From: Octopus sinensis | Taxonomy: Eukaryota | Direction: 5' to 3' | Assembly: GCF_006345805.1 (NCBI RefSeq) | Contig: NC_043022.1 | Location: 12,400,001 to 12,464,000, forward strand | DNA length: 64,000 nucleotides | In this document: positions 21,684 to 51,458 of the stretch, piece by piece | How the letters are laid out: each line of letters starts with the position of its first letter | Position numbering within the stretch: position 1 is the first letter of the stretch | Notes under the pieces: model-generated | The model's input: the letters and a program-made list of their open reading frames with translations, nothing else | The model's database searches: none | Told to the model about the DNA's origin: nothing | Made by a program: the position numbers and the translations under genes

Positions 21684-23313
21684 TAGTGTTGGCATCTAAT
21701 CTAAGCACGCTAGTATACTAATGTTAAAATGGCTATTTTTATATATTCAAGTTGTAAATTGTGAATTAACATGTATATCAAAATAAAGAAAATTTCACCA
21801 GTTTTAATATGGTCTACTGCTTTACAGCATGACATCAACATATTATTTTAAATTGAAAATAAACTTTATATTTCATAATTTACGTTGCCACTTAGAAAAT
21901 TTGCAAAATTTCGTTTTTTTTTTTTTTTTTGCCTTATTGACTAATATAAATGTAGGGTAACTTGCATGCTGTTACAATTTTTAAGTTACTTAATAGTTAT
22001 GATGAGTAAAAGACAAAACTTAACACCAGAAACCAGAGCAAGGGTCGTTCAGTTTAGTAGGCTGAAATGGCCATATAAAGCTATTTCAAATGAAGTCAGA
22101 TGCTCTAAGACAACCATCTACAACACTGTCCATCTTTATAAAGAAACTAATGATTATAAAGACTGCTCTGGACCTGGGCAACCAAGAAAAACAACAGCAA
22201 GAATGGATAGATACATTCATAGTGTATCAATATCCACATTTGACATTTTAAAAGAAATTTGGCAAAAATATAGACTTAGCATTGGAGTGTCCACCATAAA
22301 AAACCATCTCAAAAAGTTTGGACTTTTAAGAAGAGTCTCTCGCAAAAAAGCCACACATTTCTTTAAAAAATTGACATGCCTGAATACAGTTCACAAAAGA
22401 GCATTTGAATTGGAGTCCAACAGATTGGTCAAATGTGTTGTGGTCAGACGAGTCAAAGTTCATCTTGTTCAGCAGTGATGGTAGGAAGTATGTAAGAAGG
22501 TGTAAAGGTGAAGAATGTCATCCAGAATGCATCTGACCTACAATTAAGCATGGTGGTGGAAGTGTGATGGTGTGGGGGTGCATGTCTGGAAAAGGGCTTG
22601 GTCCTATAATTCAAATTAAGGGCATTATGGATAGTAAGTCCTATTTAGGAATATTGAATAAGACTATGCTTCCATACACCCGAAAGCATTTGGGCTGATC
22701 TTGGACTTTCCAGCATGACAACGACCGGAAACACACCTCACACCTAGTCAGAGATTACATTAGATCTAAGTGAGTTCAATTGATGCAGTGACTGGTGCAG
22801 TCACCTGACCTAAATCCCATTAAAAATCTTTTGGGAAAGGTTGGGTAGAACTTTGCAAAGTAATAAGCCAAAGAATAAGGATGATTTTTTAAACATTATT
22901 AACCAAAATTGTGAAAGCATCTCAGGAGCAGTGATAAATGATCTGAACAATTCTATGTTTCACAGATGCAAAGTAGTTTTAAGTAATTTTGTATATCTTA
23001 CAAAATACTAATTGTGTGAGCTTATTATTGTTATTTTGTTGATCTCAGAATAAACTGTTTAAAAGCAAAAAAAAATGAAATTTTACAAATCATTCTTAAA
23101 TTAATTGGCGTTATAAATTACAACAATTAAGATTTATTTTTGATTTAAAATTGATATGTTGATGTTATGCTGTAAAGTTGTATACAATATTAAAGCTCAT
23201 GAAAATTTCTTTATTTTGATATACATCTTAATTCACAGCTTACAAATTGAATATATAAAAAATGCCATTTTAACATTAGTATACAAACGTTCTTAAATTA
23301 AATGGTGCCACTG
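21684..23313 (+). mobile_element. Full-length Tc1-family (DD34E) DNA transposon relic with ~230-bp inverted repeats
   Basis: TA-(t)agtg...cactg-TA ends; long TIRs (gtatactaatgttaaaatggc / gccattttaacattagtatac etc.); 1630 bp. Confidence 0.92.
21999..23011 (+). pseudogene. Tc1 transposase pseudogene
   Basis: HTH N-terminus (ORF 21966-22478), then frameshifted VLWSDESKF, KHGGGSVMVWGCM, FQHDNDRKH, SPDLNPI, TKY*; several stops. Confidence 0.92.
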
Positions 23314-24214: not shown

Positions 24215-25240
24215 ATCCCATAAATAATGTGCTTTTTTCAATTGCATGAAGTAAAAGTTGGAGGGGAACAGGATAAATTGCCTGCATCAACTTGCTATGG
24301 AAGCAAGTATTAATTCTACTGGGTTTTTTTTATACTTATTCTCAGTGCAAGTTTTGAAGAGTGCAGTTCGATTTTAACAGTTATTTTTTACAAAGCTACA
24401 ATGGAAGTGACAAAGGAGCATATTTGGCATATTTTGCTTTATGAGTTCAATAAAGGCAACAACGCAATGGAAAGTGCAAGGAATATTAATGGAGTATATG
24501 GGGATTAGACAATAAATGTAAGCCAGTGTTGCCAGTGGTTCCAGAATTTCCAAGCCGGAAACTACAGCCTAGAAGATGAGCCACATCCTGGAAGATCTGT
24601 AGAGCTCGATGAAGACATCCTGCAAACTCTGGTGAAAGAAAATCCCATCGTAACTGTTAAGGAACTCGCAGAGAAGCTTAGATTTGGTTATTCAACCATT
24701 CATCAATACCTGCATGCCATTGGAAAAGTCAGCAAACTGGGTCAATGGGTTCCTCACAAACTTTCCAAGAGTGAATGTGTGCTCTTCTTTGCTGTCATGT
24801 CTCTCAAATGAACTTAGAAGAAAAACGACCGTCTTTGGTTTCAAGACAAAAGGGGTTCTTCCACCAGGAAAATGCTCAGCCACATACAGTGAGGATGATA
24901 TTTCACAGGCTGGAGCAGTTTGAATGGGAAACAATGCCTCACCCACCATATTCACCAGACATTGCCCCATTTGATTATAATTTATTCTGCAGTCTTCAAA
25001 ATCATCAGGACAGAAAAAATATGAACTCTGTAGATGAGGTCAGAACAGTAGTGGATGAGTATTTTTCATTACAGACAAGTGAATTTTGGAAGAGGGGCCT
25101 TGCAAGTCTACCAGATAGATGGAAGAGCATTGTAGGAAATGAAGGAGAGTATATCTTAGATTTTAAAAAAACTTTGTTAATCTTAATTTTGAAAAATAAA
25201 AGAAGTATAAAAAAACTGTATTATTTATGAGATAATCCAA
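24215..25240 (+). mobile_element. Internally deleted mariner (DD34D) element
   Basis: TIR atcccataaataat / attatttatgagataatccaa-TA; ATG at 24401 MEVTKEHIWHILLYEF...WVPHKL; first-D region deleted; then HQENAQPH, HPPYSPDIAP. Confidence 0.92.
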
Positions 25241-40835: not shown

Positions 40836-41176
40836 AATGTAAGTGTACATGTTCAACAGGGTGCCAGTGTTCTGAGAGAGAAGTTAGGCGTAAGAGGAAT
40901 TAGTTTCTGTGTGGAAGAGAGAAGACGGTGCTGGTTTGGTCATGTGATGCGAATGGATGCCAACAGCTCCATAAAGAAGTGTCGCTCTCTCAAAACAAAT
41001 GGAACTTGTGGAAATGGAAGACCCAAGAAGGCATGGGATGAAGTACTGAAGAATGACCTCAGGACACTAAACTTTTCAGGCAAGATGACAAAGGACCAGG
41101 ATGCCTGGTGCCTTGCTGTACTCAAGAAGACTTATACTCTGCAGCAGAAGTATTAAGACCAGTCCCTCTGGTGGTG
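40836..41176 (+). mobile_element. RTE-clade LINE ORF C-terminal fragment
   Basis: LREKLGVRGISFCVEERRRCWFGHVMRMD...GRPKKAWDEVLKNDL. Confidence 0.88.
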
Positions 41177-41204
41177 TAAAGCACTCATGTAAGTGTCACT
41201 CGAA

Positions 41205-41410
41205 TGGTACTTTTTACGTGCCACTGGCATGGGTGTTAATCAGGCGGTACTATCATTGGCCACGACAATGACTTCCTTTAACTCAACAGGTCTTCGCAAG
41301 CGCAGTTTATCGCCCAATGATTGGGCTGGTTATGTTGCACTGGCATAGGGCATTGTTACAGTCTCACTTGGTTTGCCGGGTCTTCTCAAGCACAGCATAT
41401 CTCCAAAGGT
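41205..41410 (-). mobile_element. RTE-clade LINE ORF end plus proximal 3'UTR, tail-to-tail with the previous element
   Basis: Minus strand LWRYAVLEKTRQTK* then ...tgccagtggcacgtaaaaagtac. Confidence 0.7.
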
Positions 41411-41605
41411 ATATATAAATAAGATAGTGGTACAAAATGTACCATCATTTACTGGAAATAGTAGATGATATATATGATGCTATAGTAAAGCCTCACTGTA
41501 TATATATATATACTGACAAACATGTTAGCAGGCAGCAAACATAAAAAAATTTCATCTTACCTGTTGGAAGAACATTAAATAAATGTACAACCCAGATGTG
41601 GATAA

Positions 41606-41677
41606 TCTAGGACCTAGGTTTTGAACTTTGCGAATTATGTTTGTTAATGTAAATTTGATTAGTTCTCATCAGCTAGA
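41606..41677 (-). ncRNA. Type-I hammerhead ribozyme motif with one core substitution
   Basis: Minus: tctag-CTGATGA-gaact..agttc-AAAA(for GAAA)-c-ctag-GTC-ctaga; perfect stems I and II, palindromic stem III acctaggt. Confidence 0.75.
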
Positions 41678-42530
41678 CAAAATCTCAAATGTCGCTACAT
41701 CAATGCCAGTATATACTCATCTGAAATGCCTTGTCGTCAACAGACCGAGAACAGTGAAAAGGTTTTCAAAGAAAGAATTATTAAATAGCACAATACAGTA
41801 ACATTGCTTCCTAGTAAAACTATCAGGTTAAAGTATAAATAAGATAGCGATACAATAATGCACTGATATTTATTGGAAATAGCAGTACATACATACATAC
41901 ACTCTCTCTCTCTCTCACACACAAACACACACACAAACAAACACACACACACACACACACATCCCACTGCAATATTCAGAAACTTATCAGAATTATGACT
42001 CATATTTATTAAACAATTGATATGCTATTTCATTTCAAGAGATTCCAACTTCCCATACACCAAAGCTTCATAGCTGTCCATCAACAAATCCCAAGATCAG
42101 ATGTTGCCTGCTGGGAAATTGCACTAATTCTCTCATGGACACAATATGTTAGATGTTTACATATGGGGAGTCAGAATAATCTTTATGTCAATAATCAAGG
42201 TGGAAATACTAAGAATGTTGCTTATTGTGAAACCTGTTGCTAACGATCCTCTATATGTATCTTGTTGGAGGTGATAACTTTTTAAAATACATACCTCGGA
42301 TCTCAATTATAAAGAAAATAAACATTATGTTTTAAAGACAACATATTTGCAGAGTTACCATGATTTTTTTTTTTTTTTTTTTTTTGAAGACATTCATCAA
42401 AAATTGCCAGCTCTTAGTCTTAGGCAACATCAGGTATCCTGCTAGTGCACAAACATGCACACAACACACACACACAGACACATGTAAGTATAGATATACA
42501 TACATATATGTGTGTATCATTTATACATGC

Positions 42531-42995: not shown

Positions 42996-44859
42996 GCAGC
43001 AGCCCAGCACTGGTGCAGTACTCTCTCCTTCCCACAGTCACTTCCTGGATGTGCCTTTGGATCAAAAACAGGACACATACGAGAGTGCCTATGTCTGCTC
43101 AAAGTGACACAGATGCCTAAAACAATTATCAAAGCCATATTTGTCCATGGGTGATAGCTAACTTTTTACATATACATGTGTGTGTGTAATGCATCCGTTA
43201 CTTTCATGGGACACCTGAAAAGTCTTGCTGAGGTCATGTTAGAAAAGTGATGCTTATGTGGCTGTTTATACATGTATACATATATATACATATGTGTATA
43301 TATGTTTGTATACAAATACCTATGTATACAAACATTTACATACATGTACACAAATATGTTGTATGTATACATATATACATATACGCACGCACACACACAC
43401 ACACACACATCCTCATTATTCATGAAGAAAGGGATAAATCAATACCGAAGACTTAAGATTCAATCAATCAATCAATGGAAATCAATCAAAGCAGTGCAAC
43501 AACAAAACAATATAAATAGGTAAGTAGAAAGAGAGAGACCAGCTCAGTAAATAACCAATATTGATTATTTACAACAGTTTGGAATTCAGTGTGAGACAAC
43601 CATAACAGAATATTCTAGGGTGGGGGTCATGTGGACAAGTAGTGTGTGGGTAGTGTGAGATAGCATCGTGGTGATGTTGGTTGCTGTTGGGGGTGGCGTT
43701 TGTGACGAGAAGAATAAAGCTGTCCAGATTTGTTCCTTGAAATATATTTCTCAGGGGAAATAGAGGCAAAAGAATGCCAACATGTCAGTAATAATAATAA
43801 AATTGATTTGTGTATGTGTGTGTGTGTGTTTGTGTGTAGACATCTGAACAAGAGAGCATATAATTCTGAGTTACGATATAAAGCAAATAAGCCACAAATA
43901 GATTCATATATGTACATGAATATATGTATATGTATATATCTATATGTATGTATGTATATCTATCTATCTATCTGTCTCTCTCTCTCTCCATCTATTTATA
44001 TATATGTATGTACATATATATATATATATATGTATGTATGTATACACACACACACATACACACACACACACAAACACACACACACATATATATATATATA
44101 TTTATAATTAATAATAAAAGGGTAAAATTAATCAATTAAGTTAATTAATCAATCAATTTATCAATAATTTTACCAAGTAGATCGGTACGTTAGAATAACC
44201 TTTATAGGTAAAATTATACAAACATTCTATAATTATAAACATAATTATAATTAGGGTTCAGCTAATTGCTTCACCACATACCGAATTTAGAAATAGGAGT
44301 TAAACTCTTTTACTTAAAAAAGTTGTTGTTGTCATAGAGATTCTTACAGTAGTAGAAAAGGAATTTTGTTGAATTTTTGCAATTAATAAATTATATTAAT
44401 GCTACATCTCTGAGCAGGAATTAATCTTCTCTCTTCGCTCCTTTGCTCCACATGGACTCAACTCCCCTCTCCTCTCTTCATCTCACACCTACTTCTTCTC
44501 ATCACTCCTACCCACCTTTCCTCTCCTCTCTTGCCCTGACACCTACTTCCCCTCTTCACTCCTACCCACCTCCCTTTATCATTACCCTCTCTATCCACAC
44601 CCCACCCCACACATCCCACTCTCACATACCTCACCTCTACCCCACACATCCTCACCCTAAATCCACACCCCATCCTCACATCATGCCACACCACACCACA
44701 TCATGCCACCCCACACACTAGCACTGACCACTTCCCAATACCCACACCATCATCCACACACCCACACATTACAGATGCACACATTTACACACTCTCACAT
44801 ACACATGCATGTGCACCTTCTTTTTAGGATCACCAATACTTTATTATCTTCCTTTCCTG

Positions 44860-45194
44860 AATTCCTTTTTAAAGGGGGACAAAAATTCAAAATTAAATCT
44901 GACTTTACTTGTGCCTTGGAAAACCTGATGTATGTTATAAGATGCTTGGGCTGCCACCAGAATTACATAGGGTCTACAGGATTATCACTCAGATGCAGAT
45001 GCACTCTGCACCGACAGCAGATTGCATTCCCCGAATACAGAATGATATCCTTTAGTGAACACATTGAGAGATGCGGAAAACAACTTGTAATCTTTCCTTT
45101 CTATCAATGTGCTACTGGAATACCAACACAAGTTAGATTAAAAAAGGAAACCTACTTCATTGAAAAATATAAGCCAAAATTTAATCATTTCTAA
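44860..45194 (+). pseudogene. Penelope-like element GIY-YIG endonuclease domain
   Basis: DFTCALENLMYVIRCLGCHQNYIGST..LR.R...HRQQI...RLKKETYFIEKYKPKFN; no RT upstream. Confidence 0.9.
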
Positions 45195-46274
45195 CATTTT
45201 ATTCTATCAAAACCAAATCATGTTGAATTAGCAAAACCTAATCATTCCCAACATTTTTGATTATCTCCCTTATACCGAAAAAATCCCTGATTACCTTCCT
45301 CTGTTTCAAACTCTTCTATATCACACCATAACGAATAGATGACACAACATCAGTAAAGAAATTTGAGAAATTTAAAAAGAAAATGCAAAACTGGTTATTT
45401 CTCTAAAAACAATGTCACTATACACAAAATTTTATATCATATTCCTAACATGACGATTTTTAATGTATTTTTTAACCATATAATACAAATCTTGTAGTTT
45501 TTCATTCTATTTTGTTTTTATATACATCCAACCATGTGCTTTCACATATCAACTCTCTCACACACCTATATATATATACACAGCATTAGGATGTGTTTTA
45601 TATGCACTATAAACAACTAACTATATTAGAGCCCAGTATAGTTTACTGCATTAAACTCCTTAAATCCCATTTAAAATGCATATCCATGTGCATTGTTGGA
45701 AATACTGTGAAGCAGACCATAGCACTTGAACAGAGCAAAATGTATTGGAAATAACAACAGGAATATCTAAAAATATTTATCATTACAGCTGTTCCAATAA
45801 TTCCAACACCAAATCACTCTTATACGAAGTGAAAGTGCAATTGCTTTGTCACCAGGAAGTCATTTTGAAATATGAACTACAGAATTCAATTCCACTCTTA
45901 GACAGAGTGAAGATTAAAAGAAAAAGACAAAGAGAGAAAGGAGAGAGATAAAAAAAATAAAAAATGTAAAGAAAATAAAGAACCTGTAATTATTTTGTCA
46001 AACCTGCATAGATTATATATCAGTATACTTATCAAAATAAACGTTTTGTGCCGATAAGTATGCAGGTATATAATCTTTTCATGCTAGACAAGATTAGTAC
46101 TGGATTTTTGTTGTCTTTATACCTTTATTTTTAAAATCTGTCTCTATTTTATGAATCTTCATTCTGTGTAAGAGTGGAATTGAATTCTGAAGTTCATATT
46201 TCAAAATTACTTCCTGATGATATCTATGAATGAATATATTGAAATATCAAAGTTATTGTTTTCTGTTCTTCTTT

Positions 46275-47688: not shown

Positions 47689-48394
47689 CATTCTCTTTTC
47701 ATTAAAGTGTTTAACTAATGCCTTAATTGTCATACTGTTCTTCCTATATTGGCCTGTTTATTGCTCATTGTACTTAGACTATTTTACACTGCATATATGT
47801 GCATGTGAGTGCATGTGAGTGCATGTGAGTATGTGTGTGCCTACCACATGTACAGAAACTACCTATGTGTATATAGTTCCCAAACATTAACCCCTCTATT
47901 CCACCACAATATGGTCCTCTGGTCTGAGTACCCTGTCTAATCACCAAAACTACTAAACACACATTGCATCCAACTTATAAAAATATTTTATCATATTAAT
48001 TAAAATGCCAGCTTAAGTTGTCTTGGCTTCAATTACCTTCTCTCATCGCTGAAATAAACCAATTGATTTTGTCGCTCGTCATCATTTTGGACAGTTATTC
48101 ATATTGCCTGGACAAACAGAATTTTGATATCTTTGTTGTTAAGCTGTAATTATTGACAGTGAATATGGTCGGGGAGAAATGTAATCAGATATAACTGAAC
48201 ACAACTGGATGTAATCAGATGGAAGCAGATGCAAATGGATTCATTCAAAACAACTGGACAGTATTGGCTTAGAAATATTTTACAAACCATGTTGTTTGGG
48301 TCAAACCAGTTTTGTTGTTGGCAACCCATCACTAAAATACTGTACTATATTTATATCTCTATCATTTTTGTATATATATTATCTGAAGTGTATG

Positions 48395-48483
48395 GCCAAT
48401 CTTATCAATTGGTTTCATGCTAGGGATTCAACAGTGTTAGGTAACAATCTGATTATGTAACCCTGCATTCATCAGAGGTTGCC
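48395..48483 (-). ncRNA. Type-I hammerhead ribozyme motif with intact core, Penelope-associated
   Basis: Minus: ggcaacct-CTGATGA-atgcaggg..ccctagcat-GAAA-ccaattg-ATA-agattggc. Confidence 0.75.
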
Positions 48484-49689: not shown

Positions 49690-50393
49690 TAGCTGAACAG
49701 TACCAAGTTAGATGAGTATGGAGGATGTGGGAAAACTTACCTTCCTAACAATCTTATTGTTCTTGGGTTTATTTTGAAGAGTGTGGCTGTGCATTGTCAT
49801 ACTGGAGAATGACACCTTTTCTGTTCACCAAGGATGGCTACTTTCAATGCAATTTTTCATTTATACAATTAAGTTGTTAGCAATAGACATTTGTATTGCT
49901 GGTCCTGCCATATTCCAGTAGCTCATAATGGATGATACCTTTCATGTGCCACCAAATACACAGCAAGGATTTTTGTGGATGGAATTCTGGTTTTGGTGTT
50001 GGCACTGACCTCTCATTACATAATAACCGTTGTTTTTTTTCATGTTCTCTTGTGATGCAAAACCCATTTTTCATCACCTGTAACAATACACTGAAGAAAT
50101 GACAGGCTGTTATTCCCAGTTAGAAGACTGCTGCAGATGGTGGAATGTTGTGTTTGGTTCACAAGAGTAAGCTCATGTGGAACCCAAATTCCTTTTTTGC
50201 ATGTTTTCCCAATCTGCTTGAGATGATTGTGGATAGTTGAACGTGACACATTAAATTTTTGTACCAAACCTCTGGTGCTTTGATGTGAATCTGATACAAT
50301 GGTCTCATTCATAGTGCGTTGTCTTTCAGAGTGAGGCTTGTTGGATATGTCACAATTGCCATCTTTAAACCATATCTGTCTATTGTTGCTCAA
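49690..50393 (-). pseudogene. mariner (DD34D) transposase remnant
   Basis: WVPHELT, IVTGDEKWV, LLCIWWHMKGIIHYELL, LQYDNAQPH, PHPPYS across frameshifts. Confidence 0.9.
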
Positions 50394-51458
50394 AAACTTA
50401 TAAAGAAATTAGATATTTTGTTGTCACCAAAAGTTGAAACAGAGGGAAAAAAAAACTTTCTCACTGATGAAACTTGAGCCATGTAACTATTGTTTGCTGG
50501 CCAACCACATAACCAGTTACCCTAGTGAGCATCTACCTCACTTTTACTTTAAATTAGGTACTATAAATAATTTTTTTTCTTTCTTCTGTTTTCTCTGGAA
50601 CAAATTAAATTTCTATTCTAATTAAATAATGCAATGAAACCATGTTTCTACTGTCTTCATTTAATCATTTATTAATTAGTTTAACATTCACTGGCAACTA
50701 ATGAACAAATATCAAAACATCTTTCATGAGATTAAGATGAAACTAGCCTTGGCCTTGCCATGGGATCTCAACTCCTTGATTGAGTCAAAAGGGTACTGCT
50801 GTGATATATGTCATGTGTTGGGCATTATTAGTCTTAGTGGAACCCAGCTTTCTCCAGGTCTGATCCTAATCTACTTCTTCCAGAAGAGAGCAAAAAAGAG
50901 TGAGATCAAGACAAGGATCAACACCACTACAGCACGGACACTTAATTCATCAACTCCAAAACAATGCAAGACTTAGTTGACCTCAGTGGCATTTCAACTC
51001 AAAATATGGTGAGCCAGAACGATGATGCAAAATCAGTCAATATGACACACTAACAGGATTGCTAATTGTGTTGTTAAAATGCTTGCTTCTTGGCCATATG
51101 GTCTTAGGTTCAATCCAATTGTGTAGCTTCTTGGATAAGTATCTTCTGCTATAGCCCCTGGCTGACCAAAGCCCTTCAGTGGATTTGGTAGATGGAAATA
51201 AAAAGAAGACCTATATATATATATATATATATATATTTATTTGTCATTACCTTCGAAATGCAGAGTAGATGAAACAGGGACAACAGAAGAAGGGGAATAT
51301 TCCTTCTGTTGTATGTCTTATTTCTCTGTTTTTTCGTTGTTTCAAAAAAAGTTCGTTTCTATGTTTTTGTTTTTATGTTTTCGTTTCTCATTGTGTTCAA
51401 TGTTCTTTTGATGTCCTGTACCCATATATGCATGTATATATACATATATATGTAGGTA

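What the first reader, a model, noticed from the sequence alone, without database searches (positions are those of the whole stretch)
41606..41677. Orphan hammerhead one substitution from canonical, with no coding partner recognised nearby
Seen: minus strand tctag CUGAUGA gaact-(33 nt)-agttc AAAA c ctag GUC ctaga. Stems I and II are perfect 5-bp helices, stem III is the palindrome acctaggt, and the cleavage triplet is GUC. The only defect (GAAA to AAAA) is at a CpG. It lies in a short block bracketed by TA-rich runs, with a cag|gtaaga donor-like site downstream. Inference: a solo pLTR or a retrozyme-like non-autonomous element, different in stem sequence from the 48395 motif.
Basis: partly seen in the sequence, partly recalled or inferred. 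Interest (0 to 1): 0.72.

Follow-up and report, generated by a model that had tools for sequence, protein, structure and literature searches.

The report
Dead copy of a hammerhead retrozyme
This is a damaged old copy of a 435-base non-coding repeat that is scattered through this animal genome, carries a hammerhead self-cutting-RNA motif and was likely spread by the enzyme of a Penelope-type jumping gene, a kind of element that is already known.

Summary
The hammerhead motif is real (0 look-alikes in 300 resampled windows) but not an orphan. It sits in a 41886-41414 (minus) copy of a dispersed, ORF-less ~435-nt repeat: one unit plus 52 nt of terminal redundancy. Sister copies (81-89% identical) mostly keep GAAA. 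They form partial head-to-tail tandems and head-to-head arms ending at fixed sites fused to (TA)n: the footprint of Penelope-like elements (PLEs). So it is a non-LTR retrozyme (non-autonomous PLE type), not a solo pLTR. It is not 'one substitution from canonical': 12 of 15 CpGs decayed, 10 nt of the stem I extension are deleted, extended stem II is damaged, and its CUGA most likely arose by CpG decay, because its subfamilies carry CCGA (U4C; 41 C:7 T versus 2:11 in the older group). A second, unrelated family also has a C4 sublineage (7 of 10 versus 0 of 34). U4C is a known tolerated variant. The family is old (median pairwise identity 83%), no partner PLE was identified, and nothing was tested for cleavage. 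This scan has noted similar retrozyme families on other DNA of this genome. Low-to-moderate interest.

The parts
41414..41886 (-). One copy of the ~435-nt repeat: 422-nt unit (two deletions) plus 52-nt terminal redundancy
41834..41885 (-). 5' copy of the terminal redundancy (81% identical to 41464-41414)
41414..41464 (-). 3' copy of the redundancy, ending at the family's main 3' end site (E2) and fused to a short TA run (41413-41410)
41606..41677 (-). Type I hammerhead motif: stem I, core, extended stem II, palindromic stem III, GUC
41671..41671 (-). Core position 4: U here, C in the majority of this copy's subfamilies (CpG site)
41622..41622 (-). Core position 12: A here, G in sisters (CpG decay)
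41628..41660 (-). Stem II extension (3x3 internal loop, 5 bp, bulge, 6 bp, tetraloop in the family); three mismatches in this copy
41677..41678 (-). Site of a 10-nt deletion between two TCTAG repeats that removes the distal stem I extension; also seen in one other copy
41555..41580 (-). Splice-like site (branch/pyrimidine tract, CAG|GTAAGA); ancestral, use not shown
41499..41512 (-). Internal (TA)n run of variable length in the family
41887..41961 (-). Microsatellite block (GT/GA/GTAT) abutting the 5' end

Best explanation
The motif lies in an old, mutated copy of a dispersed ~435-nt non-coding repeat that likely spread as a non-LTR retrozyme, that is, a non-autonomous passenger of a Penelope-like retrotransposon. 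Shown: unit length, no ORF, dispersed copies, partial tandems, inverted head-to-head arms, 3' ends clustered at fixed sites next to (TA)n, and read-through across the ribozyme cut site. Inferred: multimeric transcripts would fold double hammerheads through the palindromic stem III and cut slowly to monomers that may circularise; a PLE endonuclease/RT would nick TA-rich DNA, start copying at internal sites about 195 and 270 nt downstream of the cut, and run more than one unit on a circle or an uncut multimer, giving the terminal redundancy. The older sublineage had a CUGA core, later ones CCGA (U4C). This copy is inactive debris: G12A and the C-to-U change at position 4 are both likely CpG decay after insertion.
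For: 831 and 1147 first-look candidates, best sisters 81-89%. Period 435; longest stop-free frame 67 aa in 5 copies examined. 141 arms in 93 loci: 86 end at two sites (62 E2, 24 E3) and 59 of these 86 have TA at the end, versus 8 of 35 'other' ends; 20 head-to-head junctions in 19 loci, with 7 E2+E3 pairs and no E2+E2 or E3+E3; 45 arms are at least one unit long. 0 of 141 arms start within 6 nt of the cut; about 101 cross it, 12 twice. 15 of 98 copies keep full core and stems. Stem III duplex -11.4 kcal/mol. Position 4 decays like other CpGs in groups B/C (CG 28, CA 11, TG 6 of 52; other sites 59/19/14%) but is U in group A. PLE tandem/inverted layout, (TA)n bias and two internal RT start sites are published; retrozymes as PLE derivatives.
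Against: No partner PLE or homologous pLTR was found. No cleavage, circular RNA or transcription shown. Arrays are short (1 of 141 arms reaches two units), unlike long retrozyme arrays. Loci were chosen for holding the ribozyme, which favours read-through arms. No target-site duplication could be read. Subfamily order rests on midpoint rooting and a modest divergence difference (0.095 vs 0.078 and 0.061; p=0.022) with diagnostics chosen after viewing the alignment.
Confidence: 0.8

Rival explanations
1. Solo pLTR or 5'-truncated tail of an autonomous PLE whose coding copies are too rare or too decayed to have been found.
For: Same insertion footprint as PLEs; splice-like site followed by an ATG downstream of the ribozyme recalls a pLTR-ORF junction; only the best 40 candidates per DNA search were scored.
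Against: In the copies that extend past the unit start, the upstream sequence is the unit's own end; no frame over 67 aa; stem II is long and stem I extended, unlike PLE minimal hammerheads; the nearby PLE family has a different ribozyme and no homology.
Confidence: 0.1
2. A PLE-mobilised non-coding repeat in which the hammerhead was already vestigial once C4 was fixed; later subfamilies spread from uncut tandem transcripts.
For: No arm starts at the cut site; B/C carry a change that lowers activity in vitro; only about 20 lineage-level changes separate the subfamilies, too few to show selection on the core; 8 of 9 Xenopus retrozyme dimers did not cleave in vitro.
Against: The only lineage-level core changes are at position 4 and the free position 7; a second family changed the same position 4; C at position 4 is accepted in hammerhead descriptors and supports viroid infectivity.
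Confidence: 0.08
3. A domesticated or still functional single ribozyme at this locus (for example intronic), one mutation from active.
For: Canonical CUGAUGA and GUC, perfect proximal stems.
Against: G12A removes the general base (established hammerhead chemistry, recalled); 12 of 15 CpGs mutated, deletion in stem I extension, circular fold no better than shuffles (z -0.5); no host exon identified.
Confidence: 0.01

Closest known systems
Metazoan non-LTR retrozymes (Cervera and de la Pena 2020, PMC7229834: passages and the mussel section read; Li, Clavereau and Pollet, bioRxiv 10.64898/2026.07.22.740005: parts 1-3 of 5 read, supplements closed)
   Same: Non-coding unit with one type I hammerhead, short palindromic stem III, low GC, monomers and short tandems dispersed in the genome; mussel units are 350-390 bp.
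   Different: Slightly longer unit (435); 43-nt stem II hairpin; majority core CCGA; family extinct-looking; circRNA and cleavage untested; inverted arms and fixed ends are described for PLEs rather than in the retrozyme passages read.
pLTR hammerheads of Penelope-like elements (Cervera and de la Pena 2014, PMC4209133: parts 1-2 of 4 read; Craig et al. 2021, PMC8557442: passages; Frangieh et al. 2024, PMC11167929: abstract and first part of main text)
   Same: Palindromic stem III needing dimers, partial tandem and inverted 5'-truncated arms, TA-rich targets, two nearby internal 3' end sites.
   Different: No ORF; the two end sites are ~75 nt apart rather than the 30-40 nt tail; ribozyme is larger than the minimal PLE form.
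U4C hammerhead variant (viroid case cited in Perreault et al. 2011, PMC3088659: passages read; the primary paper PMC147498 was not held; CYGANGA descriptor in PMC13481778: passages read)
   Same: C instead of U at core position 4.
   Different: Here fixed in the later subfamilies of an animal repeat, and separately in a sublineage of a second family.

Membership tests
Type I hammerhead ribozyme | Core C3 U4 G5 A6 N7 G8 A9 / G12 A13 A14 / A15.1-U16.1, H17 | tested here: not met
   Window copy has A12. In the family 7 of 98 copies keep a full U4 core with stems, 8 more a C4 core.
Type I hammerhead ribozyme | Three helices around the core, stem I open | tested here: met
   Stems I (5-6 bp), II (5 bp), III (2 bp plus palindrome); 85-93 of ~95 copies pair at each stem I/II position.
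Type I hammerhead ribozyme | Self-cleavage after NUH | not testable with these tools
   Needs in vitro assay.
Non-LTR retrozyme | Small non-coding repeat unit with one type I hammerhead per unit | tested here: met
   435-nt period, no ORF over 67 aa.
Non-LTR retrozyme | Head-to-tail tandem arrangement with at least two consecutive complete ribozymes somewhere in the genome | tested here: met
   Locus L081 holds two consecutive units, both with full U4 core and stems. The window copy itself is a monomer.
Non-LTR retrozyme | Expressed as circular, highly self-paired RNA | tested here: inconclusive
   Circular-fold z-scores of sisters -1.7 to -4.0 (one -7.8 with a microsatellite inside), window copy -0.5; expression not testable with the runs offered.
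Autonomous Penelope-like element / solo pLTR | RT + GIY-YIG ORF in register with the repeat in at least some copies | tested here: not met
   None in 93 loci by arm mapping; not exhaustive.
Penelope-like insertion mode | Partial tandems, inverted 5'-truncated arm, fixed 3' ends with a tail, AT-rich targets | tested here: met
Penelope-like insertion mode | Homology to the pLTR of a named partner PLE | tested here: inconclusive
   One PLE family tested, no significant similarity; other PLE families not tested.
Penelope-like element pLTR | Retained spliceosomal intron | tested here: inconclusive
   Splice-like site ancestral (CAGGT in 49 of 89 copies); 0 matches to one hypothetical spliced junction.

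The most novel reading that the evidence does not exclude
Retrozyme lineages in this genome repeatedly trade the canonical CUGA core for a slower CCGA core and keep spreading, because the borrowed Penelope enzyme starts at fixed internal sites and needs templates that are circular or uncut across the ribozyme; attenuated self-cleavage would then be favoured, and paired U4/C4 subfamilies from two families give a natural test of what the ribozyme is for.
Probability: 0.2. Interest if true: 0.55.

Novelty: new member of a known kind. Interest (0 to 1): 0.27.

Why it matters
As a single locus it matters little: it is one dead copy. As a family it adds an invertebrate example in which a retrozyme's insertion ends look like Penelope target-primed copying, and it records a canonical-to-U4C switch that happened separately in a second family. 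That offers matched natural variants to ask how much self-cleavage a retrozyme needs. It is also a caution for motif scans: CpG decay can both create a 'canonical' core and destroy it in the same copy.

Tried and rejected
Rfam scan: no hammerhead family hit at E<=1. Idea that a G12A/deleted master was itself mobile, because L002 shares the 10-nt deletion, CTG and AAAA: rejected as unproven; only 2 exact genome matches to the deleted form and the shared point changes are all common CpG decays, no private non-CpG change is shared. Neighbouring PLE (44829-45570) as partner: no profile hit and local scores within shuffles (1 of 32 comparisons reached 3/200). Search for a PLE with the same stem III and a short stem II found a second non-coding family instead, no coding partner in 30 loci fetched of 82 matches. 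Spliced form: 0 matches. A third 'fixed end' at the internal TA run (20 arms) is unreliable, since about as many arms restart there, which points to TA expansion or later insertions. Host gene: no exon identified among 18 candidate frames by Pfam. Literature: searches for 'hammerhead ribozyme'+'octopus', 'U4C'/'core variant', CCGA strings and retrozyme+cephalopod terms listed no description of this family; Repbase/Dfam were not searchable, and two relevant papers (PMC147498, PMC5785218) and the preprint's supplements were not available, so prior description of C4 cores in animal repeats cannot be excluded.

Full report
Observation. A structural scan found it as the only hit in the window, with stems of 6 (one G-U), 5 and a self-complementary stem III; the strict versions of the scan, allowing any base for G12, gave 0 hits in 300 Markov-resampled windows. 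Rfam did not report a hammerhead at E<=1, which is unsurprising with a 43-nt stem II and A12.

It is a repeat. The window is C26:12400001-12464000 of G000, a 2.72-Gb animal genome; earlier AI notes of this scan call it an octopus, which I did not test. A 241-nt query had 831 first-look candidates, 40 scored, 81-89% identical; a second query had 1147. The 24-nt 3' half with GAAA occurs 33 times exactly, control 0. From such exact counts and the measured divergence I estimate a few hundred ribozyme-bearing copies (inference). Contigs of three DNA-type runs, labelled as three organisms, hold the family, and G is the majority at position 12 in each (797/918, 4981/5798, 364/426 by depth; one run may be the assembly's own source). 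Median pairwise identity is 82.7% over 3073 pairs, the best 95.8% and next 92%: the family is old.

Anatomy. The element spans 41886-41414: one unit of 422 nt plus 52 nt repeated at the ends. The family period is 435 (two cores 435 apart). Where copies extend past the unit start they run into the unit's own end; the longest stop-free frame in five copies is 67 aa. In the family the '33-nt loop' is a hairpin (5 bp, 3x3 loop, 5 bp, bulge, 6 bp, tetraloop) and stem I extends to 7+3+5 bp. This copy has lost the distal stem I arm by a 10-nt deletion between two TCTAG repeats and has three mismatches in the stem II extension.

Insertion footprint. I mapped 141 arms of at least 60 nt in 93 distinct loci (127 fetched, 34 dropped as overlapping or duplicate). 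62 end about 195 nt downstream of the cut site (E2, where the window copy ends), 24 about 75 nt further (E3), 20 at the internal TA run and 35 elsewhere. TA repeats follow 45 of 62, 14 of 24, 17 of 20 and 8 of 35. The internal-TA class is doubtful. There are 20 head-to-head junctions in 19 loci; 7 pair E2 with E3 and none pair E2-E2 or E3-E3. I tested this after reading the same pattern in earlier notes on other families. 45 arms reach one unit, 1 reaches two. No arm starts within 6 nt of the cut site, about 101 cross it and 12 cross it twice, so linear cut monomers were not the usual template; circle and uncut multimer cannot be told apart, and the loci were chosen for holding the ribozyme. 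Partial tandems, inverted arms, tails and (TA)n bias are the published PLE layout, and a PLE protein starts reverse transcription at two internal sites after cutting AT-rich DNA on both strands.

Core history. Among 98 distinct ribozyme-spanning copies (138 segments, duplicates removed), diagnostics outside the core give groups A (20), B (54), C (24; includes the window copy). In copies not selected on the 5' core, position 4-5 reads TG 10, CG 2, other 2 in A (n=14) and CG 28, CA 11, TG 6, other 7 in B+C (n=52); C:T 2:11 versus 41:7, Fisher p=4.5e-6. Twelve other CpG sites in the same B+C copies read CG 289, CA 93, TG 71 of 491. So the B/C source elements had CCGA, and their TG copies are decay. 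The window copy has changed 12 of 15 CpG sites, positions 4 and 12 among them. A is more diverged (0.095 versus 0.078 and 0.061; p=0.022) and basal under midpoint rooting, so U4 to C4 is the likely order; support is modest and the diagnostics were picked by eye. 7 copies keep a full U4 core with stems and 8 a full C4 core (partly selected by pattern). A second family shares stem III but nothing else; in a pattern neutral for position 4, 7 of 10 copies of one loop type have C4 against 0 of 34 of the other. U4C lowers activity in vitro yet allows viroid infectivity, and CYGANGA is used as a search descriptor, so the variant itself is known.

Folding. As monomers the hammerhead fold lies 2-10 kcal/mol above the MFE in all 7 copies tested, because the stem III palindrome competes for stem I; an additive estimate for the double hammerhead is more stable than two free monomers in 13 of 14 cases but less stable than the unconstrained co-fold in all 14. 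Dimer-only, slow cleavage is the published behaviour of such motifs.

Partner. A PLE 3' end with a weak GIY-YIG match (E=0.003, below the Pfam cut-off) lies at 44829-45570; its family has 15171 candidates, TA-fused ends and its own U3-A8 minimal hammerhead in 10 of 30 loci by a strict pattern, but shows no significant similarity to the repeat. The partner is unidentified.

Verdict. A decayed monomer of an old non-LTR retrozyme family with a PLE-type insertion footprint: new member of a known kind. Shown: motif, repeat anatomy, end clustering, subfamily core states. Inferred: cleavage, circular RNA, PLE mobilisation, direction of the U4C change. Interest 0.27.

Noticed in passing
window 44829-45570 (+): 3' end of a very abundant Penelope-like element: C-terminal GIY-YIG remnant with a CxxC linker, 3' UTR ending in a TA run. 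Sisters carry a minimal hammerhead with the U3-A8 covariant core and a 2-bp stem II, and end at two sites about 40 nt apart; the window's copy of that motif is decayed.
   Followed up: partly
window 48390-48480 (-): Second hammerhead-like motif with a CAATTG palindrome, a long stem II and a damaged cleavage triplet; unrelated to this family.
   Followed up: no
L158-L187 (for example L159, L163, L171): A separate non-coding hammerhead family (82 pattern matches, one of them from this family) with the same CCTAGG stem III, about 350-nt spacing in L162, inverted arms, and a C4 sublineage; the shared palindrome would in principle allow mixed dimers.
   Followed up: partly
L164/L165:1339-1601: Short tandem of about 87-nt units, each holding that second family's ribozyme.
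   Followed up: no
L001-L067 (group C copies): CpG loss varies from 4% to 58% of CpG positions among copies with similar non-CpG divergence, suggesting strongly position-dependent methylation.
   Followed up: no
L014, L046, L078, L080, L089: The internal TA run of the unit is often expanded or interrupted by later insertions.
   Followed up: no
window 41150-41410: Very high-copy repeat directly flanking the element's 3' end (contig depth about 100-fold the element's).
   Followed up: no
window 24314-25227 (+), 21945-22475 (+), 49880-50408 (-): Fragments resembling Tc1/mariner transposases (judged from translation; weak HTH hits for the last).
   Followed up: no
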